Shown: positions 17,601-30,180 of the stretch, piece after piece | Layout: every line of letters starts with the position of its first letter | How positions within the stretch are numbered: the stretch's first letter is position 1 | Assembly (NCBI GenBank): GCA_020354555.1 | Contig: CP070648.1 | Location: 710,656 to 774,655 of the forward strand | DNA length: 64,000 bases | Source: Armatimonadota bacterium | GTDB taxonomy: Bacteria; Armatimonadota; Hebobacteria; GCA-020354555; CP070648 | Reading direction: 5' to 3' | Notes under the pieces: generated by a model | The model's database searches: none | What the model saw: only the letters and a program-made list of their open reading frames with translations | What the model was told of the DNA's origin: nothing | Position numbers and translations under genes: made by a program

Positions 17601-18578
17601 TCAACCGTCTTGCCCATACACCCAATCCGGCGCCAAGCAGACGTGTTTGATGCGCGTCCGCATGTGCGTGTAGGTGACGTGAACCAGGCCGCCGCGATCC
17701 TGGATGATGGCGGGGTACGAGAACTCGCCCTCGTCCTCGCGCTCCAGGTCGCGCACGACGGGGAACGTCTCCCCGTCGTCTTCCGACACCGCGAGCGAGA
17801 GCGCGCTGCGCCCGCGTTCCAGCGGATTGAACGCGAGGACGACCCTGCCGTCGGCGAGCTTGACCATGTCTACCGCGGCGCCGGGGTTGGGCATGTCGGT
17901 GTTGACGGCGGGCTCCCACGTTCTGCCGTTGTCATGAGAGACGCTGCGCGCGATGCGATGCTGTCCGCAGGGACGCAGCAGCGCGAGAATCGAGCCGTCG
18001 GACCGCTGGATCATGGTCGGGTGTTGGTTGGGCACACCGGGCAACTCGCCGGTGTACCACCACGTGTCCCCGTCGTCCTCCGAGATGAGGAACAGACTGT
18101 GTTCGCTCGAATGCTCGACGCCGATAATCGTGTCGCCGTTCGCGAGGTCGAGGGGCTTGGTGCGAAAAACACACCCCCATTCCGCGCGCAGCATGATGTC
18201 CTCACTCCACGTATGTCCGAGGTCATCGCTGAGCTTCATCTTCTGATCCACCGTATCCCAGCGCACGCCCGGACCCGGCGGGCCGTCGAGCTTGCCGTGC
18301 ATGGTTCCGTAGAGCAACTGAAGCCGGCCTCTGCGATTGACCCATAATATCGCATTGCCCTCGGGCTTGCCGGGGGTGTCCGCCACGATCAGCGGAGGGC
18401 GACTCCATGCGCCCCCGGGCGCCTTGCGGGCGATCACCACGGCGGCGTCGGGCCGCGCCTCGTCTTCGCCGGCGTACCACGCGGAAAGCAACTCGCGGTT
18501 CGGCAGTTCGACGATGACCGCACAATGACACCGCGGAAGCCGCTCCGTCGGCTCATGCACCCAATCCCATTCGAACAT
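17601..18578 (-). CDS. BNR/Asp-box repeat protein, sialidase-like (GH33-like) beta-propeller
   Basis: Four Asp-box motifs (S-x-D-x-G-x-T-W/F) are present: SDDLGHTW, SEDDGDTW, SHDNGRTW and SEDDGETF. There is no signal peptide. Confidence 0.75.
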   Translation of the reverse strand: MFEWDWVHEPTERLPRCHCAVIVELPNRELLSAWYAGEDEARPDAAVVIARKAPGGAWSRPPLIVADTPGKPEGNAILWVNRRGRLQLLYGTMHGKLDGPPGPGVRWDTVDQKMKLSDDLGHTWSEDIMLRAEWGCVFRTKPLDLANGDTIIGVEHSSEHSLFLISEDDGDTWWYTGELPGVPNQHPTMIQRSDGSILALLRPCGQHRIARSVSHDNGRTWEPAVNTDMPNPGAAVDMVKLADGRVVLAFNPLERGRSALSLAVSEDDGETFPVVRDLEREDEGEFSYPAIIQDRGGLVHVTYTHMRTRIKHVCLAPDWVYGQDG

Positions 18579-18793
18579 CCCGCCCTCCCTGTCAGATTTC
18601 GTTCTGGATACCGCGCTCGGGGTGTCATCACCTCTTCAACGGCCGCGGCGCAGTGCGCGCCGACCGCGGTCATCGCGTCCGTTCGCGCGCGAGCGGCGTG
18701 AATGCCCCCGGGCGCGCCGCTCCGGAGCTCTGCGGCGGCGATCCAGGTCGGCCTCAGGCGGGAACTCGGCGGGGCTCGCCAACGTCAGAAGGA

Positions 18794-18822
18794 TTGACAG
18801 TGCCCAGGGGGTATGATACATT
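18794..18822 (+). promoter_or_regulatory. Consensus sigma70-type promoter TTGACA-N17-TACATT upstream of the first repeat-protein gene
   Basis: TTGACA sits at 18794-18799 and TACATT at 18817-18822, exactly 17 nt apart. It is followed by the AGGAGG ribosome-binding site at 18853-18858 and the ATG at 18865. Confidence 0.45.
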
Positions 18823-18864
18823 TACGGATGCGCGAGAGGGGGCATCGCAAGCAGGAGGCGTGAT

Positions 18865-19815
18865 ATGGTCAGGCGGCTCGCGGTACTGGTGCTTGTAGCC
18901 GCGGCATTCGTGCTGATGCCGCAAGCCGATGCGGTTGAGCTCGGGCTTGCCGACATTGCCCTGGGCCAATCGGCGGTGGACCTCTTCAATCAGGAGCCGT
19001 ACGGCCCACCCGATTTCCGTGGCCCGGCGGGGGCCGTGACAACCTGGGGAATAACACTGACCGAGACCCCGACACCCGCCGGTGCTCGTCCCGCGGCGGC
19101 GCGGGGCGCAGTACCTGCCCGCGGAGGAGTTGGCGCGCCGGCTCCGGCCGCCCGTCCAACAGGGGGATTGCAGCTTCGGCTCGGCGGCGGACGCGGTGAG
19201 GACCGGCCATCAACGCCCGCAGCCCCGACTGTGGGCGCTCGCCCTCCGATGCTCCGACTCGGCGGCGGGCGTACCACGCCTGGCGCGGCCGGCCGTGGCG
19301 TCGCGCGGCCGCAGGCCGCCGCGACGCCAGCAGCGAGCGGCGGGCAGACCTACTGGCTCTACAATCAGCCTGGCGGCGTCCAGATCGTCGCCGGTATCGA
19401 AGCCGACGGCAAGGTCAATTCCGTCATCCTCTCGGGGCAGTCGTATCCAGCCAAGACCGAGGGCGGCGTAGCCCTGGGGGACAGTTACAAGTCGGTGCTC
19501 GACAAGTACGGCTACCCCGATACCACTCGCAATGCAGGCGACGCGCTCATCCTCAGCTATCGCAACGCCGGCTTGACTCTGACGCTGCAAAACCTGCGGG
19601 TGCAGACGATCGCCTTGGCCAAGCCGGCGCCGCTGGGCGCCGCAATTGCACCTGGCGGCCCTGCCGCGCCGACGGCTCCCGCACGGACCGGTGTGCGGCC
19701 GCTGGGCCCGACGCGGCCCGGCGTGGCGAGACCGCGGACGGCGCCCGGGACGCCCGGGACGCCGGGTCAGAGGCCGAGGTTGAGGCTTCGCCTCGGCGGC
19801 GGCAGAGAAGACTAG
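18865..19815 (+). CDS. Secreted Pro/Ala/Gly-rich protein with LRLGGGR repeats (uncharacterised family)
   Basis: The protein has a signal peptide MVRRLAVLVLVAAAFVLMPQADA and a conserved N-terminal box EPYGPPDF. There are three copies of the motif: GLQLRLGGGRGEDR, MLRLGGGRTTPG and a C-terminal RLRLRLGGGRED. The central globular domain is QTYWLYNQPGGVQIVAGIEADGKVNSVILSG...GDSYKSVLDKYGYPD. Confidence 0.7.
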   Translation: MVRRLAVLVLVAAAFVLMPQADAVELGLADIALGQSAVDLFNQEPYGPPDFRGPAGAVTTWGITLTETPTPAGARPAAARGAVPARGGVGAPAPAARPTGGLQLRLGGGRGEDRPSTPAAPTVGARPPMLRLGGGRTTPGAAGRGVARPQAAATPAASGGQTYWLYNQPGGVQIVAGIEADGKVNSVILSGQSYPAKTEGGVALGDSYKSVLDKYGYPDTTRNAGDALILSYRNAGLTLTLQNLRVQTIALAKPAPLGAAIAPGGPAAPTAPARTGVRPLGPTRPGVARPRTAPGTPGTPGQRPRLRLRLGGGRED

Positions 19816-19842
19816 GTCGGCATACGAGCGCGGAGAGAGATC

Positions 19843-20820
19843 ATGGCTTACGCGACAACTCGCATCCTCATCTCCCTGGCGCTGGCGGCGGCACTGGCGG
19901 CGTTAGCCGCCCCCGCTCTGGGCCAGGAAATGCAGTTGGTGGGCATGTCCCTCGGCGACACGCCGGAGGAACTCCTGGCGCACGAGGACTACGGTCCGCC
20001 CGATGCCATGTTCACCCCCGGTAACGTGTTCAACTCCGTCAAGACCACGCCCGGCGAAGTGCCCCCGTGGGCGATCGCCGTTCGCATGGCGCAGGTCGGC
20101 CCGGACCAGGTGCAGTGGGTGTACAACCGCGATCCGGTGGCCATCGGGCTTCTGATCACCGGCGAGGGGATAAACGCCCACGTCACCAACATCGTCGTGA
20201 GTATGTGGCGGGATTTCAAGCCGTCCAAGATCGCAGAAACGGAAAAGGGCATTCGCCTCGGCAGTTCCTTCGCCGAAGTGTTCGAGCGCTACGGCTGGCC
20301 CAACCGCATGCAGATCATCGCCGAAGCTGGCACCACTGAGCCGCAGCAAGCCGGCACGGCGCGCGCCGCCCGCCCGGCGGCCCCGGGAGCGGGGCGCCCG
20401 GGCGCCCTGGGAGGCCTGCAATTGCGGCTCGGCGGCGGTCGCGACGGCGGTGGATCTGCCGCGCCCGCCGCGGCGCGCCCTCGCCCAACAATCGGCTCGT
20501 CGGGCGTTGGGCCCCGGCTGCCTGCCCCACGCGCTGCGGCCCGACCCCGGGCCGCCAGCGGAGGCCTGAGCCTGAGACTCGGCGGAGGCAGGGGCGAGGA
20601 TCGAGGCACCGGTCCCGGCCCGCTGCCCAGAGTCGGGCGCGCGCCAACCACTGCGCCCGCGCGCGTGGCCGTACCGACGGGGCCAACCACCAGCACGGCG
20701 GCCGCCGTTGGGCAGGTGCCGAACGTGACCTTCACCAAGAGCTGCATCCTGAGCTATCCCACGGTGGATTTCGTCGTCTACCGCATGACGGTCTTCCGCA
20801 TCCACATCTACGGGCGCTGA
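19843..20820 (+). CDS. Secreted LRLGGGR-repeat protein, paralog of the upstream gene
   Basis: The protein has a signal peptide MAYATTRILISLALAAALAALAAPALGQ. It shares the box EDYGPPDA and the globular domain VQWVYNRDPVAIGLLITGEG...GSSFAEVFERYGWPN with its paralog. It carries two repeats, GLQLRLGGGRDGGG and GLSLRLGGGRGEDRG. Confidence 0.7.
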   Translation: MAYATTRILISLALAAALAALAAPALGQEMQLVGMSLGDTPEELLAHEDYGPPDAMFTPGNVFNSVKTTPGEVPPWAIAVRMAQVGPDQVQWVYNRDPVAIGLLITGEGINAHVTNIVVSMWRDFKPSKIAETEKGIRLGSSFAEVFERYGWPNRMQIIAEAGTTEPQQAGTARAARPAAPGAGRPGALGGLQLRLGGGRDGGGSAAPAAARPRPTIGSSGVGPRLPAPRAAARPRAASGGLSLRLGGGRGEDRGTGPGPLPRVGRAPTTAPARVAVPTGPTTSTAAAVGQVPNVTFTKSCILSYPTVDFVVYRMTVFRIHIYGR

Positions 20821-21429
20821 GGCAGGCCGCGCCCAGGCTCGCAGATGCGTGCGCGACGCGTGTCGTTCTGTCGCAACCGAGCGGCCGCTCGCCGGACACA
20901 AGCTTGTCAGCGACGCTTCATGGAATAATACAGGCGACACCGCATCATGCGCCGCGCAGGCCGCGTCCGGCATTCGCGACACCGCCAGGGCCCAATCAAC
21001 TTCCGACGTCCCGTGTCGTAGACTATCGCATGCGGAGCGCCCGCATGATGACACGTGATGACCGGCTGCGGCCGCCGCGCGTACGTACCGCAGCACGGCG
21101 CAGGTCGGCACGGCAGCGCATGTGAGTATGTCGGTCCACGGGTATATCTATAGAGTCTCGGGTATTACCGGAGCACCGGTAATGCCCGCAGACTGTTGCG
21201 GACGAGGTTCGATCGGGAGGAGCGCTGGCATCCCTTGCGTCCTCCCCTAATGCACGAACCTCGGTAATGGGGTTCGTGTATTAGCGCAGAGCTTCAGGCA
21301 TGATGCGGCTCCGCCGCGTTCCGGAGACGCCATAACTCACCGCGCGCATGCCGGCAAGCGCACACATCAGCGCCGCCGTGCGTTCCGCGCACATATGACG
21401 CAGAGATGAGACCGAAAGGCAGCAATCCC

Positions 21430-22782
21430 ATGCATCGCAAGCATCGCACAGCGCTCGTCGCGCTGCTGGTCGCCCTGATGGCGTGCTCGTTCACGGCCGG
21501 CCGGCAGTTCCAGAGCCTTTACGACAGCGCCGCCGGGCGCATTGACATAGCCGACGCCCTGCGCGCGACTCAGCTCGCCAGCGCGGTCGGCGTGACGCCG
21601 GCGGACGTCACGGACGACGTCGACCTCAGGCCCCTGGAGACGTTCGGCCAGGTGCTCAAGAACATAGATAACCTGTACGTCGCGCCCGTCGAGGATCGAT
21701 CCAAGCTGACCTACGGGGCGATCCGCGGCATGCTCGCGGCACTCGAAGATCCGTACACGAGGTTCATGGAGCCGGAGGAGTATCGAGCGTTTCAGCAGGA
21801 GAACCAGGGCCACTTCGAGGGCATCGGCGCAACCATCGGCCTCACCGAGATAAAAGGGAACGAGGACGCGGCGAAGGTCACGCCCGGCTTGCGCTGCCCC
21901 GCGTGCGGCTCGGAGATTCACCCGCGGCGCTTCCGCGTCACGATCATAGCGCCGCTGCCCGGCAGCCCGGCGACCGAGGCGGGCGTGCAGGCCGGCGATC
22001 TGATTCTCGGGATTGACGACGTGTCCACCGAGGGCATGACCCTCGGCGATGCCGTCAAGCGCATCCGCGGCGAGCGGGGCACCACGGTCAAGCTGCTGCT
22101 CGGACGCGAGGGGGCGAGCCAGCCCGTGCTCAAGGAGATCGTGCGTGGGCCGATTCAGGTGCCCACGGTTGAGACGAAGATGCTCGAGGACGGCATCGGC
22201 TACATGCGTTTGAACTACTTCTACGAGGATACCGGGCGGTCGGTCGAGCAGGGATTGGAGAAACTCCGCTCGCAGAACATGCGCGCGCTGTTGCTCGACG
22301 TGCGCAACAACCCCGGCGGGCTGCTCAACCGGTGCATAGACGTCGTGCGCCACTTCGTTGATGAAGAGCCGGTGGTGTACGTTCAGGAGCGCGGCCAGCC
22401 GATGCATCCTTTCTACGGCGGGGAGCGCGGCAAGGGGCACCGGTTCGAGTACCCGCTGGTGGTACTCATCAACAAGGGCAGCGCGAGCGCCTCCGAGATC
22501 CTCGCCGGCGGCATCCAGGACGCGAAGGTCGGCGTGCTCGTCGGCACCACGACGCACGGCAAAGGCTCGGTGCAGACGGTGCTGCCGCTGAAGGACGGTT
22601 CCGCCCTGGCGCTCACGACCTCCAAGTGGTACACGCTGGGGCGCCGCGGCATTGATCACGAGGGGGTGAAGCCGGACGTCGTGGTCGAGGTGCCTCCGGA
22701 AGCCAGGCTCGCGAGCGCGGAAGACACCCAATACCAGAAGGCGCTCGAGATGCTGCGGCAGCAGGTAGCGGCCCGCCCGTAG
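21430..22782 (+). CDS. S41-family C-terminal processing peptidase with PDZ domain
   Basis: The ORF runs 21406..22782. The likely start is the ATG at 21430 (MHRKHRTALVALLVALMACS). S41 motifs are present: GAIRGMLAALEDPYTRFM, the PDZ segment IIAPLPGSPATEAGVQAGDLILGIDD, LLDVRNNPGG (catalytic region) and VVLINKGSASASEILAGGIQD. Confidence 0.85.
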   Translation: MHRKHRTALVALLVALMACSFTAGRQFQSLYDSAAGRIDIADALRATQLASAVGVTPADVTDDVDLRPLETFGQVLKNIDNLYVAPVEDRSKLTYGAIRGMLAALEDPYTRFMEPEEYRAFQQENQGHFEGIGATIGLTEIKGNEDAAKVTPGLRCPACGSEIHPRRFRVTIIAPLPGSPATEAGVQAGDLILGIDDVSTEGMTLGDAVKRIRGERGTTVKLLLGREGASQPVLKEIVRGPIQVPTVETKMLEDGIGYMRLNYFYEDTGRSVEQGLEKLRSQNMRALLLDVRNNPGGLLNRCIDVVRHFVDEEPVVYVQERGQPMHPFYGGERGKGHRFEYPLVVLINKGSASASEILAGGIQDAKVGVLVGTTTHGKGSVQTVLPLKDGSALALTTSKWYTLGRRGIDHEGVKPDVVVEVPPEARLASAEDTQYQKALEMLRQQVAARP

Positions 22783-22869: not shown

Positions 22870-23973
22870 ATGACACCGTCACCACGCCGCACAAGGAAAT
22901 CGACATCGCCGTGGACGCTCATTGCGCTGCTCGCGCTCGTTATCGTAGCCCTGTGGTGGATGTCGAGAGAGCCGCGCGGCTCTGGGCCGTCCCCGACGGG
23001 TGGCCCATCCGGCGACCGTCCCTCCCATCCCGGCGCCGTGCAACCGCCTGGGCACGGTCGCTCCCACGGATCTCCGGACGCATCGGGGTCCGCGACCTCC
23101 GCCTCGGAATCTCGCAGGGATCTGCCAGATTCATCACTAGCAGGCCGCGGCCCGCTGCCGGACACCCAGTGGCAACCGCAGCGACCGCTCCTTCCTGCCG
23201 CGCCCGGCCGCGTCGCGATCATCGTTGACGACGTCGGCTACAACGACGGCGCGCTCGACGGCTTTGCGGAGGTGGATTTCCCGTTGACCTTCTCCGTGCT
23301 TCCCCAACTCGACGACTCGCGGCGACTGGCGCGCGCCTGCGCGGCCGCCGGGTTCGAAGTCATGCTCCACCTGCCGATGCAGCCGAGGAACTCGGATCTC
23401 GATCCCGGACCCGGCTGCGTCATGGTCGAGATGACCGACGACGAGATTGCCGAGCTAGTGGAGCGGAACCTGACCAGCGTCCCGGGCGCGGTGGGCGCCA
23501 ACAACCACATGGGGTCGCTGGCAACCGCCGACGAACGGGTAATAACCGCCGCGCTGTCCGTGCTGCGCCGACACGGTCTGTTTTTCGTGGATAGTCTCAC
23601 GACCGGCGGCAGCGTGGCGGAGGAAGCGGCCGCCGAGGTCGGCATTCCCTACGCCGAGCGGAGCGTCTTCCTCGACACGAATTTCACGCCCGAGCCGACG
23701 ACCACGGAGGAGTTCTGCGAGGCGGCGCAGGAGCGCGTGCAGCAGTTGGGGCGCATCGCGCAGCGCCGCGGTTCAGCGATCGGCATTTGCCACTACCGGC
23801 CGCAGACGGCGCAGATGCTCGGCCTCATCCTGCCCGCGCTCGAGGAATCCGGCGTCGCAGTGGTAAGCGTATCGAACGTGATGTCGGGGGCGAGCCGAAG
23901 CGTGTCACCGACGCGCCCCGGCGCCGCGCCGAGAGCAGAGCCGGGAACTCACGAGCCCGCGCGCGACCGCTGA
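22870..23973 (+). CDS. Divergent polysaccharide deacetylase-family protein (YibQ-like)
   Basis: The protein has an N-terminal transmembrane segment (WTLIALLALVIVALWWM) and a low-complexity linker. The YibQ-type domain is VAIIVDDVGYNDGALDGFAEVDFPLTFSVLPQLDDSRRLARACAAAGFEVMLHLPMQP...NNHMGS...GLFFVDSLTTGGSVA. Confidence 0.75.
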   Translation: MTPSPRRTRKSTSPWTLIALLALVIVALWWMSREPRGSGPSPTGGPSGDRPSHPGAVQPPGHGRSHGSPDASGSATSASESRRDLPDSSLAGRGPLPDTQWQPQRPLLPAAPGRVAIIVDDVGYNDGALDGFAEVDFPLTFSVLPQLDDSRRLARACAAAGFEVMLHLPMQPRNSDLDPGPGCVMVEMTDDEIAELVERNLTSVPGAVGANNHMGSLATADERVITAALSVLRRHGLFFVDSLTTGGSVAEEAAAEVGIPYAERSVFLDTNFTPEPTTTEEFCEAAQERVQQLGRIAQRRGSAIGICHYRPQTAQMLGLILPALEESGVAVVSVSNVMSGASRSVSPTRPGAAPRAEPGTHEPARDR

Positions 23974-25175
23974 AGCCGACGTTTCTGGACCGCTTCGTGC
24001 ATCGCCGCCCGATGCACCGGGTGCACGTTCTCCACGATCCACTCGCGCATTTCGCGCCCGGCTTCGGTCTGCTGCGGGTACGACATGAATCCCAACTCGA
24101 CGCCCAACGCCTGAGCCGCATCGTAGGCCACAAGCGGCCAGATGACGCCGATATCGCCGATGACGGGCAGGCTCGTCGGCAGGCGCGCGAACCCCGACAT
24201 TTCCATGCGGAAGGGCACGCCCGTGACCTTGGTCTTCGGCAGGCCCTTGGCGACCGCCGCGGCGACGGTGCCAGAGTCGCGCTCCATCTGCCACGCGCGC
24301 TCCAGGTTCGGGTCGAGGTCAATGCGGATGAGCTGCTTGCCCGCCAGCGAGTAGGTCGCGAAGCCGTCCCAGTCGGCCCAGATACCGTGCCCGGTGTGCG
24401 TCTCGAACGGACCGTCGTGAATCTCCTGGGTCAGGGCCACTGCCGACTCGATGATGACGTCGGCTTCGCCGAGCAGTGCGGCGACGCGGGCGGCGCGCGC
24501 GGTGATTGAAATGCTGTCGCCGACCGCGAGGCCCACCGCGCCCCCGCCCACCAACTGCGGGATACTCACCAGCACCGGCGCACCCCGCGCGTATCCCGCG
24601 CCGATCATGGTGTGTGAATCAGCGCCGGCGCCGGCTATTGCCTCCAGAGGATCACCGACGGATTTCGCAAGCGCCTCCGCCTCACGCGCGAGGCGCTCGG
24701 TGCGCAGTCCCAGCGGGTATGCCAGGTTCCCCGCCGCCTTGATGATGTTCGCGCCCTCCGTCGCCAGCGCGCGATCCATGAGGTCGCGCTCCACCGGCAT
24801 TTCCGCTTCGATCGTTTCGAGCCAGCCGTCGGGCAGCAGCGAGATCTCGAACATGCCGTCCATCGGCAGTGCTGCGGCGTCGAGGCCGAGCGGCTCGCCG
24901 CGCACACGATGCACGCGCTCCAGCGTTCCCGCCATCTCGTGGGCGATCGCGGCGGACGACGTCGTCACGCCGTCCACGATGCCGGTACGAATCAGCTCCG
25001 CCAGCAGCGTCGTCACGCCCTCATGCAGATTCGGCCCGCTGCCGGTGACGACGACGACCTTGCCGCCCTTCTGCTTGGCGGCGACGATGGCGGCGACGGC
25101 CTTGCCGATGCGCTCGCGCACATCCGCATCCAGCTCCGCGCGCAACGCCTCGATTACACCTTTGTCAACTGACAC
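23949..25175 (-). CDS. Deoxyhypusine synthase-like (DHS/homospermidine synthase superfamily) protein
   Basis: The segment VVVTGSGPNLHEGVTTLLAELIRTGIVDGVTTSSAAI aligns to the DHS NAD-binding signature T-S-N-L-x3-G-x-R-E-x(n)-V-D-x-x-V-T-T-x-G-G. At 408 aa the protein is longer than canonical DHS. Confidence 0.5.
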   Translation of the reverse strand: MSVDKGVIEALRAELDADVRERIGKAVAAIVAAKQKGGKVVVVTGSGPNLHEGVTTLLAELIRTGIVDGVTTSSAAIAHEMAGTLERVHRVRGEPLGLDAAALPMDGMFEISLLPDGWLETIEAEMPVERDLMDRALATEGANIIKAAGNLAYPLGLRTERLAREAEALAKSVGDPLEAIAGAGADSHTMIGAGYARGAPVLVSIPQLVGGGAVGLAVGDSISITARAARVAALLGEADVIIESAVALTQEIHDGPFETHTGHGIWADWDGFATYSLAGKQLIRIDLDPNLERAWQMERDSGTVAAAVAKGLPKTKVTGVPFRMEMSGFARLPTSLPVIGDIGVIWPLVAYDAAQALGVELGFMSYPQQTEAGREMREWIVENVHPVHRAAMHEAVQKRRLQRSRAGS

Positions 25176-26326: not shown

Positions 26327-28270
26327 GTGATGAAACAGTGGCACTCCCGAGACAACGCGATCCAGTTGCCGAAGGCCGCGCGGGCGTCGCTGACGGTAGT
26401 GACGGTGAGCGCCGTGCTGGCAGTCGGGTGCGGCGGGACGTGCGGCGGGTCGCGACCGGCGCCGCTCACCGCGCCTGCGCCCGTCGCCGCGCCGGAGCCA
26501 GCCCGTGAGCAACCGCCCCAGCCAGGTGGGGTCTCCTTATCCGATCTCCCGGCCCTGCCGACCGGCGAGGACTTGAAATCCGCTCTCGAGCTTCCCATGC
26601 GTTCGCGGGTCGCGCCCCTGACCATGCAGTACTGGGGCGAGCAGGCATCGGGCGAGGTCCTCCTCGATTCGCTCGCTGAGGAGCCGTTGTTCCCGCAGTT
26701 TGACCGGGTGACATGGCACCGCTGGCTGAGCGACGGATCTCTCGTGCTCCTAAACGGCGACCGGCTGTACCGCGTTCATCCATCTGGCGACTCGCGGTTG
26801 CTCGCGGCGGTCGGCGAGCCGGATCTGCCGCCCAGGCTGTCGCCGGACGGGCGATGGGTCGCGGTAGCGCTGGGACGCAGCATCACCTTCGTTCCGACCG
26901 ACGGCGGCCCGGTAAGGCGCCTGCCGCAGCCGGGCTGGGTGCACAGCATCGGCTGGCACCCCGACAGCACGCGCCTTGCGTTCAATGCCAGCAACCGCAT
27001 CTGTGTGGCAACGACCGCGGGGGACGTGAGAGTGCTGGAAACGGAGGCGCCAACAGTCCAGGCCTGGTGGGGCGCGCCCGTCACCCTTGCGAACGTCCCT
27101 CAGATCGAGTGGTCTGCCGATGGGACGCGTCTGGCATACCGCCTGGTGTACCGTGCCGAGAGCGCACCGCGCGACTGCGCTGACTACCAATATGACTCTC
27201 GCGTAGTGGCGTTGCACGGCGAGCAGCGAGAGATGGTCATGACGGGTGGTTACTCGCCCGAGGATGGTCTCTTTTCCTGGGCCACAGCCGGATACGTAGT
27301 AGCGTACACGGGCAACTTCGGCGAACCGGATACGTGGTGCAACCTGTGGACGCCGCATGGGCGGGGGTCGGTCGCGATCTCGGGCACCGTGCTGAGCTAC
27401 CGCCGTACCGCCTGGCATCCACGTGACGGGGTGCTCGCCGTCGAGGAACACTGGTTTGGGCCTGAAGCTGCGCGCCAATTCGGTCCCGTCGCGCCGACGA
27501 CTCAGTTGGCGTTCTTTACCATTCCTCAAGCCAGTGGCCGAAGTGTGCGCGAAGACGACTGGCCCGACTTCGAATGGGCACCAACGGGCCGCGCATTCGT
27601 GATGCGGCGCAAATGCGCTTACGTCGCACAGGGCCGCAAGACCGCCCACCAGGTCACCGGCAACGACATCGGCGATTTCGCAATCACGGGGAGTGCAATG
27701 AGCGGCGAGTTTGCGCAGATGGCGCCACTCGACGTCACGATCACTGGCGTACAGTGGACACCACTGCGGAGCGCCGTCAGTTTCGAGCGGAAATCGGCGC
27801 CAGACAGGTCCGTCCTTTGCGTGGCACCCGTCACGAGGAATCGGAGCGGCGCGACCCACGCTCGCCGGTGGCTGGCCGCGGGCAAAGAACTTCGACGCTC
27901 CGGGAATATCGAAGAGGCTACGATCTGCTTCCGCAACGCTGTCCGATGCGAGCCGGATTGGGCGGAACCGCGCGTCCGCCTAGCCCAGTGCTATCTCGAC
28001 CTCAGCGCGCGAGAGACGAATCCCGCGTGCATGGCGTGGCTGCTCGACGGCGCAGAGTTCGAGACGCAACGCGCGGCGAAGCTGACCACGCTGTCAGACG
28101 ACAGCTTGCACCTTCGCACGGTCATCGCCAGGCGCCGCGAGCATGCTAGTGCCGCGCTAAGCATCTCCGCCGGGCGCTGGTGGGGCAGGAGCATCGCTCC
28201 TGGTGCTCCGCTGTACGCCGACGATCCGGAGACATTCGGCCGACCGTTCGGTGGGCCTGGGAACAAATGA
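26327..28270 (+). CDS. Lipoprotein with PD40/TolB-like beta-propeller and C-terminal TPR-like region
   Basis: The lipobox is VLAVGC. A Pro/Ala-rich linker is followed by PD40-type repeats (LSPDGRWVAVALGRSITFVPTDGGPVRRL...WHPDSTRLAFNASNRICVA; WSADGTRLAYRL). The C-terminal helical region is ATICFRNAVRCEPDWAEPRVRLAQCYLDL. Confidence 0.75.
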   Translation: MMKQWHSRDNAIQLPKAARASLTVVTVSAVLAVGCGGTCGGSRPAPLTAPAPVAAPEPAREQPPQPGGVSLSDLPALPTGEDLKSALELPMRSRVAPLTMQYWGEQASGEVLLDSLAEEPLFPQFDRVTWHRWLSDGSLVLLNGDRLYRVHPSGDSRLLAAVGEPDLPPRLSPDGRWVAVALGRSITFVPTDGGPVRRLPQPGWVHSIGWHPDSTRLAFNASNRICVATTAGDVRVLETEAPTVQAWWGAPVTLANVPQIEWSADGTRLAYRLVYRAESAPRDCADYQYDSRVVALHGEQREMVMTGGYSPEDGLFSWATAGYVVAYTGNFGEPDTWCNLWTPHGRGSVAISGTVLSYRRTAWHPRDGVLAVEEHWFGPEAARQFGPVAPTTQLAFFTIPQASGRSVREDDWPDFEWAPTGRAFVMRRKCAYVAQGRKTAHQVTGNDIGDFAITGSAMSGEFAQMAPLDVTITGVQWTPLRSAVSFERKSAPDRSVLCVAPVTRNRSGATHARRWLAAGKELRRSGNIEEATICFRNAVRCEPDWAEPRVRLAQCYLDLSARETNPACMAWLLDGAEFETQRAAKLTTLSDDSLHLRTVIARRREHASAALSISAGRWWGRSIAPGAPLYADDPETFGRPFGGPGNK

Positions 28271-30180
28271 GAGGACCCCAACTGCGATTGGACGACGGCG
28301 AAGGGCGTCGGGCGTGGCTCCGTAGACTGCTCCACCTGTGCGTCCTACTGGCCGTATGCTCAGTGGCAGTCGGGTGCGGCGGGTCGCGACCGGCGCCGCT
28401 GACCGCGCCTGCACCCGTCGCCGCGCCGGAGCCAGCCCGTGAGCAACCGCCCCAGCCAGGTGGGGTCTCCTTATCTGATCTCCCGGCCCTGCCGACCGGC
28501 GAGGATTTGAAATCCGCTCTCGAGCTTCCCATGCGCTCGCGGGTGGCGCCGTTGACCATGCATTACTGGGGCGTAATCACGAACGGTCGCGTGTCGCTTG
28601 ACTCGCTGGCGGAGGAGCGCCTGTGTCCTCAGTTCGACCGCGTGCGCTGGCACCGCTGGCTGCCGGATGGATCGCTGGTGATTCTGAATGGCGACCGGTT
28701 GTATCGCGTTCATCCATCTGGCGACTCGCGGTTGCTCGCGGCGGTCGGCGAGCCGGAGGTGCAGCCCAGGCTGTCGCCGGACGGGCGATGGGTCGCGGTA
28801 GCGCTGGGACGCAGCGTTACCTTCGTTCCGACCGCCGGCGGCCCGGTAAGGCGCCTGCCCCAGCCCGGATGGGTGCACAGCATCGGCTGGCACCCCGACA
28901 GCACGCGCCTTGCGTTCAATGCCAGCAACCGCATCTGTGTGGCCGAGACTGGCGGAGCCGTTGAGACGCTTCGCGTAGAGCCCGTTAGGCGGCCAGCGGA
29001 ATGGGAGGGCGATGCGGCGCTCTGGAAAGTGCCCCAGGTCGAATGGTCGGCCGATGGCCGCCTGCTTGCCTACCGCCTGATACTCAAGAGCAAGAACGTA
29101 CACGGCGAGATTGACTACGAGACTCGGCTTTCTGTCCTCGGGCCGCGCGGCAAGACCTGGGAGCACATCTCCTCCAGCTTCGGGCAAGAGGACGGTCTGT
29201 TCTCGTGGGCGCTTGGAGGAGACGTGTTAGCGTGGACCGGCACTGGCGGCGACGTCCACTCGGCCGGCTTTCTGTGGACGCCTCGCGGGAGTTCGGAAGT
29301 GGTGGAGACAGGGACAGAGCCGACCTTCTATCACACCGCGTGGCAGCCCCACGGGGAACTGCTTGCGGTGGAGGCGATGTACAGCGCCGGGGAATCGGAA
29401 ATGTTCGGAGCCGCCAGCACGTTCCACGACGTGGATCTGGTCGCAATCGCGGGAATCCCTCGCGGCGCCGCGCGCGAGGATGGATGGACAGAGTTCGAAT
29501 GGGCCGGCTCGGGAAGCGCGTTCGCCGCCGCAGTGAGGGCTCGCGCGCGCGTGCCCGATCCGAAGACTCGCTACTATCGCCTTCAGGCCGTTGGTGATTT
29601 CCCGATGGCCGGGAATCCGAAGGCAAACGCAGTGGTGCAAATAGCGCAGCTCGGGGGCGACGTCACCGACATGCAGTGGCAACCCGGTGAACGCGCGGTG
29701 ACCTATGTCCGACAACTCGGCGGGCGCCAGTCGAGGCTGTTCTCCGCCGCGATCACGCACAGCGCTGCCGGGCGTGAAGAGGTCCGCCGCCGACTCGCCG
29801 AAGGAGATGCGTCGTACCGCCAGGGCCGCTTCGAGGATGCCGCCATCCACTTCCGCAACGCGGTTCGCTGCGCGCCCGACTGGTCGGAACCGCGCGTCCG
29901 CTTAGCCCAGTGTTACCTCGACCTCAGCGAGCGCGAGACGAATCCCGCGTGCATGGCGTGGTTGCTCGACGGAGCAGGATTCGAGCTCCGCCGCGCCGGG
30001 TCACTCGCGCACGTCTCCGAGGTGGATGAGCGCATAGACATCATTATCGCGGCGCGCCGCGCCCACCTCAATGAGGCCCTGGGCGTCCGTACCGGCGAGC
30101 GCTGGTCGTGGGATTACAACCTGAGCCCGCGCACGCCGAGCTGGCGACCGCAGCCCGTCGAACTGTCCCCCGGTGAATAG
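28267..30180 (+). CDS. Paralogous PD40 beta-propeller/TPR lipoprotein, a tandem duplicate of the upstream gene
   Basis: The likely start is the ATG at 28267, overlapping the upstream stop as ATGA (MRGPQLRLDDGEGRRAWLRRLLHLCVLLAVCSVAVGC). The ORF track begins at 28180. It has the same architecture as the upstream gene and shares long blocks of identical protein and nucleotide sequence with it. Confidence 0.75.
   Translation: MRGPQLRLDDGEGRRAWLRRLLHLCVLLAVCSVAVGCGGSRPAPLTAPAPVAAPEPAREQPPQPGGVSLSDLPALPTGEDLKSALELPMRSRVAPLTMHYWGVITNGRVSLDSLAEERLCPQFDRVRWHRWLPDGSLVILNGDRLYRVHPSGDSRLLAAVGEPEVQPRLSPDGRWVAVALGRSVTFVPTAGGPVRRLPQPGWVHSIGWHPDSTRLAFNASNRICVAETGGAVETLRVEPVRRPAEWEGDAALWKVPQVEWSADGRLLAYRLILKSKNVHGEIDYETRLSVLGPRGKTWEHISSSFGQEDGLFSWALGGDVLAWTGTGGDVHSAGFLWTPRGSSEVVETGTEPTFYHTAWQPHGELLAVEAMYSAGESEMFGAASTFHDVDLVAIAGIPRGAAREDGWTEFEWAGSGSAFAAAVRARARVPDPKTRYYRLQAVGDFPMAGNPKANAVVQIAQLGGDVTDMQWQPGERAVTYVRQLGGRQSRLFSAAITHSAAGREEVRRRLAEGDASYRQGRFEDAAIHFRNAVRCAPDWSEPRVRLAQCYLDLSERETNPACMAWLLDGAGFELRRAGSLAHVSEVDERIDIIIAARRAHLNEALGVRTGERWSWDYNLSPRTPSWRPQPVELSPGE

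What the first reader, a model, noticed from the sequence alone, without database searches (positions are those of the whole stretch)
18786..20820. Tandem secreted paralogs carrying a novel repeated peptide motif L-R-L-G-G-G-R-[GD]-[EG]-D-R
Both proteins have a signal peptide, a conserved E-[PD]-Y-G-P-P-D box, and a small globular domain (W-x-Y-N...LGxSxxxVxxxYGxP). Pro/Ala-rich linkers are punctuated by five copies of the motif ([LQ]-x-L-R-L-G-G-G-R-G/D-E/G-D-R). One copy sits exactly at the C-terminus of the first protein. The codons differ between copies (cag ctt cgg ctc, atg ctc cga ctc, agc ctg aga ctc), so the conservation acts at the peptide level rather than reflecting DNA repeat expansion. 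I know of no described domain or sorting signal with this sequence. It could be a cell-envelope anchoring or sorting tag, a protease or transglutaminase recognition site, or an adhesion repeat. The pair is driven by a near-perfect sigma70 promoter and a strong ribosome-binding site, suggesting high expression.
Basis: seen in the sequence. Interest (0 to 1): 0.7.

Follow-up and report, generated by a model that had tools for sequence, protein, structure and literature searches.

The report
Shared peptide motif in paired secreted proteins
Two neighbouring secreted proteins of an uncultured Armatimonadota bacterium carry five selected copies of the peptide L-R-L-G-G-G-R on floppy loops and a tail, and the pair always sits next to a cell-wall protease gene, so the peptide is most likely a docking tag rather than a sorting signal.

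Summary
ORFs 18865-19815 (P1, 316 aa) and 19843-20820 (P2, 325 aa) are paralogues (hhalign 98.9%). Together they hold five exact LRLGGGR copies, against at most three copies of any 7-mer in 20,000 linker shuffles. Codons at the copies match no more often than local codon usage predicts, so selection acts on the peptide.

Orthologues keep the motif sites only in degenerate form: hydrophobic-R/Q-hydrophobic-x-hydrophobic-G-(G/R)-R.

Two further findings:
- The order P1-P2-CtpA-type PDZ/S41 protease is kept in every related locus with enough flank, usually followed by a YibQ/SddA-like deacetylase. This is the position envC holds in Pseudomonas.
- In each genome the P1 and P2 loops share genome-specific words (pairing permutation P <= 5e-5).

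Best reading (about 0.35): multivalent docking motifs for a common partner, most simply P1/P2 themselves, within a CtpA-linked cell-wall module. A sorting signal is not supported. No experiment or complex model supports any function yet.

The parts
18794..18822 (+). Sigma-70-like promoter: TTGACA, 17-nt spacer, TACATT, with an upstream TG
   Evidence: 10 of 12 positions match and it is the only hit in 18400-21500 (shuffled sequences average 0.4 hits). This is a consensus match only and has not been shown to function.
18853..18858 (+). AGGAGG ribosome-binding site, 6 nt upstream of the P1 ATG
   Evidence: Read directly from the sequence.
18865..19815 (+). P1 coding sequence (316 aa). GenBank annotates only the last 188 aa (JSV65_02970).
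   Evidence: Eleven orthologues of 305-347 aa align from Met1, and the signal peptide and residues 24-63 are conserved.
18865..18933 (+). P1 signal peptide, residues 1-23, with signal-peptidase-I type site ADA|VE
   Evidence: Judged by inspection. P19, A21, A23 and E25 are invariant in alignment A1. No predictor was run.
18934..19053 (+). P1 N-terminal piece of the BLIP/YfeY/DUF4309-like domain (residues 24-63, including LGQSAVDLFNQEPYGPPD)
   Evidence: AlphaFold2 pLDDT is about 70-82 here. The region is conserved and aligns to P2 residues 29-56.
19054..19341 (+). P1 disordered Pro/Ala/Gly/Arg-rich loop (residues 64-159), carrying motif copies 1 and 2
   Evidence: pLDDT is below 50. Composition is P 0.18, A 0.20, G 0.20, R 0.14, computed over the P1 loop and C-terminal tail together.
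19174..19194 (+). Motif copy 1, LRLGGGR (context GGLQLRLGGGRGEDR)
   Evidence: The hydrophobic-polar-hydrophobic-x-hydrophobic-G pattern is kept in at least 90% of orthologues at this site.
19252..19272 (+). Motif copy 2, LRLGGGR (context PPMLRLGGGRTTPG)
   Evidence: This site is only partly conserved in orthologues.
19342..19620 (+). P1 main piece of the BLIP/YfeY/DUF4309-like domain (residues 160-252)
19621..19812 (+). P1 disordered C-terminal tail (residues 253-316), ending in motif copy 3
   Evidence: pLDDT is below 50. Eleven full-length orthologues have a tail that ends in the motif.
19786..19806 (+). Motif copy 3, LRLGGGR (context PRLRLRLGGGRED-stop)
   Evidence: R307 is invariant in all 12 sequences.
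19843..20820 (+). P2 coding sequence (325 aa; GenBank JSV65_02975), starting 27 nt after the P1 stop
   Evidence: Seventeen orthologues were found. Third-codon-position GC is 0.82 in this frame, against 0.69 for the antisense ORF.
19843..19923 (+). P2 signal peptide, residues 1-27, with site ALG|QE
   Evidence: Judged by inspection. The -1 residue is C, G or A and E29 is invariant in orthologues.
19924..20337 (+). P2 main part of the BLIP-like domain (residues 28-165)
   Evidence: hhalign against the P1 family gives probability 98.9%, E 2e-17. The AlphaFold2 model of P2 is poor.
20338..20727 (+). P2 disordered loop (residues 166-295), carrying motif copies 4 and 5 and the GPGPLPRVG box
20422..20442 (+). 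Motif copy 4, LRLGGGR (context GGLQLRLGGGRDGGG)
   Evidence: The site is moderately conserved in orthologues.
20572..20592 (+). Motif copy 5, LRLGGGR (context GGLSLRLGGGRGEDR)
   Evidence: The site is absent from the shorter orthologues.
20611..20637 (+). GPGPLPRVG box in the P2 loop; a second linear motif that is conserved more deeply than LRLGGGR
   Evidence: L261, P262, V264 and G265 are invariant in 18 sequences. An LPPxG-like form persists in distant relatives.
20728..20817 (+). P2 C-terminal beta-hairpin that completes the domain (VTFTKSCILSYPTVDFVVYRMTVFRIHIYGR)
   Evidence: It is nearly invariant. It matches the pattern of P1 residues 228-252 (ILSYRNAGLTLTLQNLRVQTIALA), read from the sequence.
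21406..22782 (+). CtpA/CtpB-type C-terminal processing protease (CtpB_N-like, PDZ and Peptidase_S41 domains), the conserved downstream neighbour
   Evidence: Pfam. Synteny.
22870..23973 (+). YibQ/SddA-like divergent polysaccharide deacetylase (PF04748), with an N-terminal membrane anchor and a disordered linker
   Evidence: Pfam E 3.4e-68. Translation. Conserved position.

Best explanation
P1 and P2 are a co-expressed pair of secreted (periplasmic) paralogues. Each is built on a BLIP/YfeY/DUF4309-like (PepSY-clan) domain that is interrupted by a long disordered loop, and P1 also has a disordered tail.

The LRLGGGR peptides are short linear motifs displayed on those flexible segments. They are this genome's version of a fast-evolving, genome-specific 'sticker' that P1 and P2 share. 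I propose that the five copies act as multivalent docking strands: an amphipathic hydrophobic-x-hydrophobic-x-hydrophobic strand followed by a Gly/Arg turn, binding one common partner.

The motif changes from genome to genome but stays matched between P1 and P2. The simplest partner is therefore P1/P2 themselves, either loop to loop or loop to domain, which would give a hetero-oligomer or mesh.

The pair works in one module with the adjacent CtpA-type PDZ/S41 protease and the SddA/YibQ-like peptidoglycan deacetylase. That places it in cell-wall remodelling, at the genomic position held by the amidase activator EnvC in Pseudomonas.

Shown here: the motif is real and under peptide-level selection, the fold class, the split-domain architecture, the conserved gene order, and the P1/P2 co-variation. 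Inferred: binding as such, the identity of the partner, and the link to cell-wall remodelling.
For: 1. Five exact copies against at most 3 in 20,000 shuffles. Codon identity between copies is at the level expected by chance, 3.0 against 2.75 of 7. DNA similarity is confined to about 34 nt or less. Together these show the peptide is under selection.

2. Motif sites are conserved in position across 11 P1 and 17 P2 orthologues. The residue-class pattern h-R/Q-h-x-h-G is at least 90% conserved at P1 site A and at the P1 C-terminus, and R307 is invariant.

3. P1 and P2 of the same genome share genome-specific words:
- LRLGGGR and GRGEDR in this window;
- RLSFGRR, ALRFGFG and GGLRI in close orthologues;
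- GGRGSE in L004 and L028;
- GVIMRPSFAPEEEE against GIIMRPTFAEEEEQ in L006 (a near-identical stretch seen by eye; no shared 5-mer from it appears);
- GGGLRGPGA and GPQMGGG in L009;
- GYPGAP in L038;
- a 45-residue module PQMLE..QIAQMA..NLSAEQV in L039.
Permuting the P1/P2 pairing over 15 genomes gives P <= 5e-5 for k = 4, 5 and 6. A curated motif comparison gives within-genome identity 0.49 against 0.39 between genomes, P = 2e-4.

4. The two genes always occur together, 10-60 nt apart or overlapping, which suggests stoichiometric co-expression.

5. The order P1-P2-S41 is kept in every locus with enough flank, down to relatives with profile E-values of 1e-28 to 1e-37; a YibQ-like gene follows wherever the close-orthologue loci extend far enough.

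6. The fold belongs to the BLIP/YfeY/DUF4309 group. This clan of protein-binding modules includes enzyme inhibitors (PMC11836899).

7. An envC-ctpA-yibQ/sddA operon, and SddA's role at the septum, are documented in PMC12569750 and bioRxiv 10.1101/2025.02.18.638797.
Against: - There is no direct evidence of binding.
- AlphaFold2 left all motif segments below pLDDT 50 and did not dock them. No multimer prediction was possible.
- Within-genome matching is strong in some genomes (this window, L009, L039, g3086, g16437) but absent at the exact-word level in others (g7719, L026, g6354). Without the window genome, the curated-motif test is only marginal (P = 0.05).
- Shared amino-acid composition within a genome could inflate word sharing, although words made of two or fewer letters were removed.
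- Conserved gene order shows functional linkage, not mechanism.
- The gap between P2 and the S41 gene is 585 nt in this window, so co-transcription is not assured.
Confidence: 0.35

Rival explanations
1. The motifs are recognition, tethering or cleavage sites (degrons) for the neighbouring CtpA-type protease. P1/P2 would be its substrates, or NlpI/LbcA-like adaptors or inhibitors, and the amphipathic strand would insert by beta-augmentation into the PDZ groove or the catalytic cleft.
For: - The P1-P2-S41 order is strictly conserved.
- From general knowledge, S41 proteases of the Prc, CtpA and CtpB types act on disordered tails and are gated by their PDZ domain.
- P1 has a conserved disordered tail that ends in the motif.
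- The PepSY/BLIP clan includes protease and hydrolase inhibitors (PMC11836899).
- CtpA and Prc use accessory proteins, and SddA may be a Prc substrate (PMC12569750).
Against: - The PDZ carboxylate-binding loop and groove (FEGIGATIG; GSPAAKAGVQAGDLIL) are almost invariant in genomes whose motifs differ radically: LRLGGGR, IIMRPTFAEEEE, GGGRGSE and FTFRFSSGGEE.
- P1 C-termini are charged rather than hydrophobic (RED, RRD, GDE, RRR, GSE), unlike classical PDZ ligands.
- Four of the five copies lie in loops that split the fold, so cleavage there would nick the domain.
- P1 and P2 are neither TPR proteins nor lipoproteins.
Confidence: 0.25
2. The motifs are cationic amphipathic beta-strands, (hydrophobic-Arg)n followed by Gly-Arg. 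They would tether P1/P2 non-covalently to an anionic envelope component such as phospholipid, LPS, peptidoglycan or another polymer.
For: - In the window's clade the copies alternate hydrophobic and Arg residues and end in Arg clusters: RLRLRLGGGR, MRFRFGRR, LRIRLGGRR, LRLGLGRRR.
- Neither protein has a lipobox.
- From general knowledge, BamE-like domains bind anionic lipid.
- The neighbouring genes act on peptidoglycan (bioRxiv 10.1101/2025.02.18.638797).
Against: - The cationic character is not general. L006 has IIMRPTFAEEEE, L026 has FTFRFSSGGEES, L038 has GYPGAP and L039 has a Gln/Met-rich module.
- In this window Glu/Asp directly follow the Arg (GEDR, ED).
- A generic polymer ligand does not explain why P1 and P2 stay matched while genomes diverge.
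Confidence: 0.15
3. The motif has no specific function. It would be a by-product of low-complexity linker evolution, homogenised between the adjacent paralogues by gene conversion or replication slippage.
For: - The linkers are low in complexity: P, A, G and R make up about 70% of residues.
- Small tandem DNA repeats occur nearby.
- L009 shows long repeated units in both genes.
- The motif sequence evolves fast between genomes.
Against: - Codons of the five copies are as different as random synonymous draws, and they include rare codons (AGA, AGG, CGA, CTT, TTG).
- DNA similarity stops at the edges of the motif.
- The repeated units of L009 are only 64-71% identical at the DNA level between genes.
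- Motif sites are conserved in position, and R307 is invariant.
Confidence: 0.1
4. The motif is a C-terminal sorting or anchoring signal, or a processing site of the ubiquitin-tail LRLRGG or double-glycine type, read by a dedicated sortase-like enzyme or peptidase.
For: - One copy lies at the extreme C-terminus of P1 in this window and in eleven full-length orthologues.
- It resembles LRLRGG and Gly-Gly cleavage sites. This is a resemblance from memory only.
Against: - No hydrophobic helix follows the motif, and the tail ends 0-12 residues after it.
- No NCBIfam sorting-domain model hits.
- Four copies are internal to loops that split a domain.
- L006 P1 lacks the tail altogether, and in L010 the tail sits on P2.
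- Many orthologues have no Gly-Gly (FGRR, LNRR).
- No other ORF in the 64 kb carries the motif.
- The fold is not a beta-grasp.
Confidence: 0.03

Closest known systems
YjgB/DUF4309, YfeY, CAP_assoc_N and BLIP/BLP proteins (Pfam clan PepSY, CL0320; ECOD BLIP-like and yfeY-like groups)
   Different: There is no sequence-level match: Pfam gives nothing at E <= 1, a PDB profile search gives nothing, and only 3 of 93 relatives give weak BamE hits. Here the domain is split by 95-130-residue disordered loops carrying linear motifs, and the proteins come as a fixed paralogue pair next to an S41 protease.
The envC-ctpA-PA5135 (yibQ/sddA) operon of Pseudomonas aeruginosa and the envC-sddA operon of E. 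coli
   Same: A CtpA-type S41 protease gene is followed on the same strand by a PF04748 deacetylase gene and preceded by genes for secreted accessory proteins (PMC12569750; bioRxiv 10.1101/2025.02.18.638797).
   Different: The upstream slot holds P1-P2 (BLIP-like domains with disordered loops) instead of EnvC (coiled coil plus LytM/M23). No M23 domain is present. Whether P1/P2 regulate amidases is unknown.
NlpI-Prc and LbcA-CtpA adaptor-protease pairs
   Same: The idea of an accessory envelope protein working with a PDZ/S41 protease in cell-wall hydrolase control (PMC12569750).
   Different: NlpI and LbcA are TPR lipoproteins encoded elsewhere in the genome. P1 and P2 have neither TPR repeats nor a lipobox and are encoded directly upstream. 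No interaction has been shown.
C-terminal sorting signals (LPXTG, PEP-CTERM, GlyGly-CTERM)
   Same: A short conserved Gly/Arg-containing peptide lies at the very C-terminus of a secreted protein.
   Different: There is no transmembrane helix after the signature, most copies are internal, and no NCBIfam model hits.
Sticker-and-spacer disordered proteins and elastomer-like repeats (elastin, resilin, abductin, FG-nucleoporins). This comparison is from general knowledge only.
   Same: Gly/Pro/Ala-rich spacers are punctuated by short hydrophobic or aromatic stickers. Relatives carry GYPGAP, MPGM/GGMRGG and GGGLRG repeats.
   Different: Here the disordered parts are loops anchored at both ends in a small folded domain of a bacterial periplasmic protein. 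No phase or material behaviour has been tested.

Membership tests
BLIP/YfeY/DUF4309-like fold (Pfam clan PepSY) | Three-dimensional similarity to solved members (tandem helix plus beta-sheet repeats) | tested here: met
BLIP/YfeY/DUF4309-like fold (Pfam clan PepSY) | Sequence match to a member family HMM (PF14172, PF04355, PF07467, PF14505 and others) | tested here: not met
   P1 and P2 have no Pfam hit at E <= 1. Three of 93 distant relatives hit BamE weakly, best E 0.0035. PDB profile searches are empty.
ctpA-yibQ/sddA cell-wall gene cluster | An S41/PDZ protease gene directly followed by a PF04748 gene on the same strand | tested here: met
   In the window, 21406-22782 is followed by 22870-23973. 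The same holds in the related loci that extend far enough downstream.
ctpA-yibQ/sddA cell-wall gene cluster | An EnvC-type gene (coiled coil plus LytM/M23) directly upstream | tested here: not met
   The upstream genes are P1 and P2, which have no M23 domain.
C-terminal sorting signals (LPXTG, PEP-CTERM, GlyGly-CTERM and similar) | A signature motif followed by a hydrophobic transmembrane segment and a basic cluster at the extreme C-terminus | tested here: not met
   P1 ends LRLGGGRED-stop with no hydrophobic segment. NCBIfam gives no hits. Four copies are internal.
C-terminal sorting signals (LPXTG, PEP-CTERM, GlyGly-CTERM and similar) | The same tag at the C-terminus of many proteins of the genome | not testable with these tools
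   Only 64 kb of the 4.88-Mb genome is available. No other copy occurs in the window. The word-based motif search failed.
RTX calcium-binding repeats | Tandem arrays of the nonapeptide GGxGxDxUx | tested here: not met
   Only copies 1 and 5 contain GGRGED. The copies are 26-180 residues apart, not tandem. No Pfam hit.
Ubiquitin-like tail (LRLRGG) | A beta-grasp domain ending in a free or processed Gly-Gly | tested here: not met
   The fold is BLIP-like, not beta-grasp. The proteins have signal peptides. Orthologues often lack Gly-Gly (FGRR, LNRR).
NlpI/LbcA-type protease adaptors | A TPR lipoprotein that binds the S41 protease | tested here: not met
   No TPR hit and no lipobox. Binding could not be tested.

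The most novel reading that the evidence does not exclude
P1 and P2 form a periplasmic sticker-and-spacer system. Their genome-specific motifs (LRLGGGR here; GYPGAP, GGGLRG, MPGM or a 45-residue helical module elsewhere) would bind like to like, cross-linking the two paralogues into a reversible mesh or condensate at the cell wall. The adjacent CtpA protease would trim or dissolve that mesh. This would be a bacterial envelope analogue of elastomeric or FG-type cohesive proteins, replacing EnvC-type control in this lineage.
Probability: 0.15. Interest if true: 0.8.

Novelty: new variant of a known kind. Interest (0 to 1): 0.5.

Why it matters
CtpA/Prc-type proteases and the SddA deacetylase control peptidoglycan hydrolases and daughter-cell separation in model Proteobacteria. 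How deep-branching diderm phyla such as Armatimonadota do this is unknown.

This locus points to an unannotated protein family that occupies the envC slot of the conserved cluster. The family has about 128 clusters at 50% identity among 1.84 billion representatives and no Pfam or NCBIfam model.

It also offers an unusually clean natural case of short linear motifs that evolve quickly between genomes yet stay matched between two paralogues. That pattern can be used to find the binding partner and to study how linear motifs co-evolve in bacteria.

In addition, the GenBank start of P1 is probably wrong, which hides the signal peptide and half of the protein.

Tried and rejected
1. Motif search of the 5.8-billion-protein collection. 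A 55-aa composite of three motif copies found only one candidate sharing words with the query and nothing scored. Low-complexity words seem not to be indexed, so whether other proteins carry LRLGGGR remains untested.

2. The genome-contig scan with the P2 family profile found no relatives. Using the S41 protein as bait found only proteases 33-39% identical, in unrelated MAGs mostly labelled as candidate phyla. The lineage is therefore not among the held GTDB representatives, and no named or cultured carrier was found.

3. The afdb50 fold library was unavailable.

4. The AlphaFold2 model of P2 was too poor to use (pLDDT 42.6). The motifs were not docked in either model.

5. PDZ co-variation was looked for and not found.

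6. Rfam and tRNA scans of the window were empty. The 585-nt gap between P2 and the S41 gene holds nothing recognisable.

7. Literature searches found no description of this family: 'LRLGGG', DUF4309/YjgB/YfeY, CtpA with BLIP or BamE-like, and Armatimonadetes with C-terminal processing protease.

8. RTX, ubiquitin-tail, lipoprotein and sortase-type readings were considered and rejected (see the membership tests).

9. The long antisense ORFs (19903-21111 and others) were rejected. They have no homologues, and third-position GC is lower than in the sense frames.


Full report
**1. What is there**

The window is 67.5% G+C. By an exact protein match it comes from a 4.88-Mb contig of an uncultured Armatimonadota bacterium, with locus tags JSV65_02970 and JSV65_02975.

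Two same-strand ORFs fill the flagged interval:
- P1, 18865-19815, 316 aa.
- P2, 19843-20820, 325 aa, starting 27 nt after the P1 stop.

Upstream lie a promoter-like site, TTGACA-17-TACATT with a TG, at 18794-18822 (10 of 12 positions), and an AGGAGG 6 nt before the P1 ATG.

The sense frames are supported by homologues and by third-position GC (P2 0.82). The long antisense ORFs (for example 19903-21111) have no support.

GenBank calls only the last 188 aa of P1, starting at the Met of 'MLRLGGGR'. Eleven orthologues of 305-347 aa align from Met1 through a conserved signal peptide and N-terminal segment, so the long ORF is the right one.

**2.

A six-frame scan finds five LRLGGGR peptides, all in P1 or P2 and none elsewhere in the 64 kb. 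In 20,000 shuffles of the linker residues, no 7-mer occurred more than three times.

The seven invariant residues use different codons in the five copies, including rare ones (AGA, AGG, CGA, CTT, TTG). Pairs of copies share 3.0 of 7 codons, against 2.75 expected from local codon usage (P = 0.35). DNA-level repeats end at the motif borders, are at most 34 nt long and are 71-86% identical. TRF finds only three trivial micro-repeats.

The longer consensus (G/D-E/G-D-R) applies to only part of the copies.

**3. Architecture**

P1 and P2 are paralogues: BLASTP E 6e-8 and hhalign probability 98.9%, E 2e-17. Neither hits Pfam or NCBIfam even at E <= 1, and PDB sequence profiles find nothing.

The AlphaFold2 model of P1 is confident only for residues about 26-45 and 160-252 (pLDDT 70-89). 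All linkers and motifs are below 50. The P2 model is poor.

The P1 model matches the following solved structures:

Foldseek agrees. ECOD and Pfam place these families in one homologous group, clan PepSY, several of whose members are enzyme inhibitors (PMC11836899).

The domain is split:
- In P1 a 96-residue Pro/Ala/Gly/Arg-rich loop (residues 64-159, motif copies 1 and 2) separates the first helix-loop element from the rest. A 64-residue tail ends in copy 3.
- In P2 a 130-residue loop (residues 166-295, copies 4 and 5, plus an invariant GPGPLPxVG box) precedes the last, nearly invariant beta-hairpin.

Both signal peptides look like signal-peptidase-I substrates, with small residues at -3 and -1 and no lipobox. 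This was judged by eye.

**4. Relatives**

The family is small. A profile search of 1.84 billion representatives gave 128 hits at E <= 1e-3 and 47 at E <= 1e-10. Ninety-three of them gave no Pfam hit except three weak BamE matches. All are metagenomic, and no relative was found among the GTDB representative genomes held here.

Orthologues about 50-57% identical keep motif sites at the same places but in degenerate form: FRIALGGRR, LRISLGGRG, LQFGFGAGR, LRLSFGRR, and at the P1 C-terminus LRLRFNRR, LRIRLGGRRGM, FRLSFGRRR, MRFRFGRRD. The class pattern hydrophobic-R/Q-hydrophobic-x-hydrophobic-G is at least 90% conserved at P1 site A and at the P1 C-terminus, where R307 is invariant. P2 site D is moderately conserved, and P1 site B and P2 site E are facultative.

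But the exact LRLGGGR is a peculiarity of this genome. Mean pairwise identity among its 9-residue motif copies is 0.86, against 0.27-0.63 in other genomes.

**5.

(a) Conserved gene order. In every related locus with enough flanking DNA the order is P1, P2, then a CtpA/CtpB-type protease (CtpB_N-like, PDZ and Peptidase_S41 domains), all on one strand. A PF04748 YibQ-like deacetylase follows wherever the close-orthologue loci extend far enough downstream. In L010 a CTP_transf_3 gene follows the protease directly, and no YibQ-like gene was detected in L039.
- The P1-P2-protease order extends to relatives that match the P2 profile only at E 1e-28 to 1e-37 (L038, L039, L040, L009, L010).
- A still more distant hit (P0104, E 5e-6) is not linked to an S41 gene.
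- The window has the same layout, continuing with a conserved 408-aa gene on the minus strand and then, on the plus strand, a KdsB-like gene and two PD40/TPR genes.
- In Pseudomonas aeruginosa the operon is envC-ctpA-PA5135 (yibQ/sddA). [quoted passage not shown]
- P1-P2 thus occupy the envC position. They are not EnvC homologues, since they have no M23 domain.

(b) Genome-specific matching of the disordered parts of P1 and P2:
- This window: LRLGGGR and GRGEDR.
- g16437: RLSFGRR.
- g3086: ALRFGFG.
- L004 and L028: GGRGSE, also at the P1 C-terminus.
- L006: GVIMRPSFAPEEEE against GIIMRPTFAEEEEQ.
- L009: GGGLRGPGAGGGLRGGG..GPQM repeats in both proteins.
- L038: GYPGAP.
- L039: a roughly 45-residue module PQMLE..QIAQMA..NLSAEQV, plus Met-Pro-Gly repeats in both proteins.

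Permuting which P2 goes with which P1 over 15 genomes gives P <= 5e-5 for shared non-trivial 4-, 5- and 6-mers. The effect is uneven: three genomes share no exact 6-mer motif word. With the window genome removed, the curated-motif test is marginal (P = 0.05).

**6. Mechanism**

Shown here:
- The motifs are real and selected as peptides.
- They are displayed on flexible loops and a tail of a secreted BLIP-like paralogue pair.
- The pair is genomically locked to a PDZ/S41 protease and usually also to a peptidoglycan deacetylase.
- The disordered parts of P1 and P2 evolve in concert.

Inferred: the motifs are multivalent docking elements for one common partner. The chemical nature of the shared element differs widely among lineages (cationic amphipathic strand, acidic strand, Tyr-Pro-Gly, Met-Gly, a helical module), while P1 and P2 stay matched. 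The most economical partner is therefore P1/P2 themselves, either like-with-like or loop-to-domain. The protease and deacetylase would act on or with that assembly. I put this at about 0.35.

The main rival, at about 0.25, is that the motifs are tethers or degrons for the CtpA protease. The synteny and the known biology of Prc and CtpA favour it. Against it:
- The PDZ binding loop and groove are nearly invariant in genomes with unrelated motifs.
- The P1 C-termini are charged rather than hydrophobic.
- Most copies lie inside a split domain.

Other rivals:
- Envelope-polymer or membrane binding by (hydrophobic-Arg)n strands fits the window's clade but not the others (about 0.15).
- Neutral low-complexity drift with gene conversion is contradicted by the codon data and the positional conservation (about 0.1).
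- A sorting signal is contradicted by the lack of a hydrophobic segment, the internal copies and the variable presence of the tail (about 0.03).

**7. Comparison and novelty**

By fold the proteins belong with the BLIP/YfeY/DUF4309 group, but no sequence model captures them. The gene cluster is a variant of the known envC-ctpA-sddA arrangement with a different upstream component. Neither the motif itself nor the paralogue-matched behaviour of the loops matched any model or text in the libraries I searched.

I rate it a new variant of a known kind, with interest 0.5. It is a solid, testable lead in envelope biology and in the evolution of linear motifs. It is limited by the uncultured host and by the absence of any direct functional evidence.

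**8. Limits**

- No multimer modelling was possible.
- No genome-wide motif census was possible.
- Signal peptides and disorder were judged from sequence and pLDDT only.
- Pairing of some P1/P2 orthologues rests on equal contig lengths. It was verified for the loci actually fetched.

Noticed in passing
window 18865-19248: GenBank (JSV65_02970) annotates P1 as 188 aa, starting at Met129 inside motif copy 2. Orthologues and the conserved signal peptide show that the true start is 18865, so the public record lacks the signal peptide, the first domain piece and motif copy 1.
   Followed up: yes
window 20611-20637 (P2 residues 257-265): A second linear motif, GPGPLPxVG, lies in the P2 loop. It is invariant in 18 orthologues and recognisable as LPPxG in distant relatives, so it is conserved more deeply than LRLGGGR. 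Its role is unknown.
   Followed up: partly
window 21406-22782 (S41 protease, about residues 150-185): The PDZ domain of the CtpA-type protease carries a conserved insertion, KVTPGLRCPACGSEI, with a C-x-x-C pair. It is present in nearly all syntenic orthologues; L010 has CTYCGS. The N-terminus (LVALMAC) looks like a lipobox.
   Followed up: no
window 20821-21405: The gap between P2 and the S41 gene is 585 nt here, against about 100-250 nt in the related loci read individually. It holds no Rfam hit, no tRNA and no convincing ORF. The only terminator-like hairpin is on the minus strand (20955-20934).
   Followed up: partly
window 23949-25175 (minus strand): A 408-aa gene has only sub-threshold Pfam hits (deoxyhypusine synthase-like, ArgZ C-terminal Rossmann). 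It keeps its position between the yibQ-like and kdsB-like genes in L001, L004 and L008. Its 3' end overlaps the yibQ-like stop region by about 25 nt.
   Followed up: no
window 26327-28270 and 28180-30180: Two adjacent large paralogous ORFs have weak PD40 (beta-propeller) and TPR hits. The first is syntenic with a 646-aa gene in L008.
   Followed up: no
P0041, P0126, P0143, P0149; L039 2-913: Distant relatives of the family carry Met/Gly-rich linkers (GGMRGGGMRMGGG, MMGGGGSGKMAGMMGGG, MPGMPMPGMPG). These recall Met-rich periplasmic copper-binding or elastomer-like sequences.
   Followed up: no
window 17601-18578 (minus strand): A BNR_2 (sialidase-like beta-propeller) gene diverges from the P1 promoter region. 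It recurs upstream of the pair in L001, L002 and L007, though not immediately adjacent there.
   Followed up: no
L010 398-1453: In this relative the C-terminal motif-bearing tail (RLRFGLSGRRDRRERDEE-stop) sits on P2, after its final hairpin, not on P1. The tail module has therefore moved between the paralogues.
   Followed up: partly
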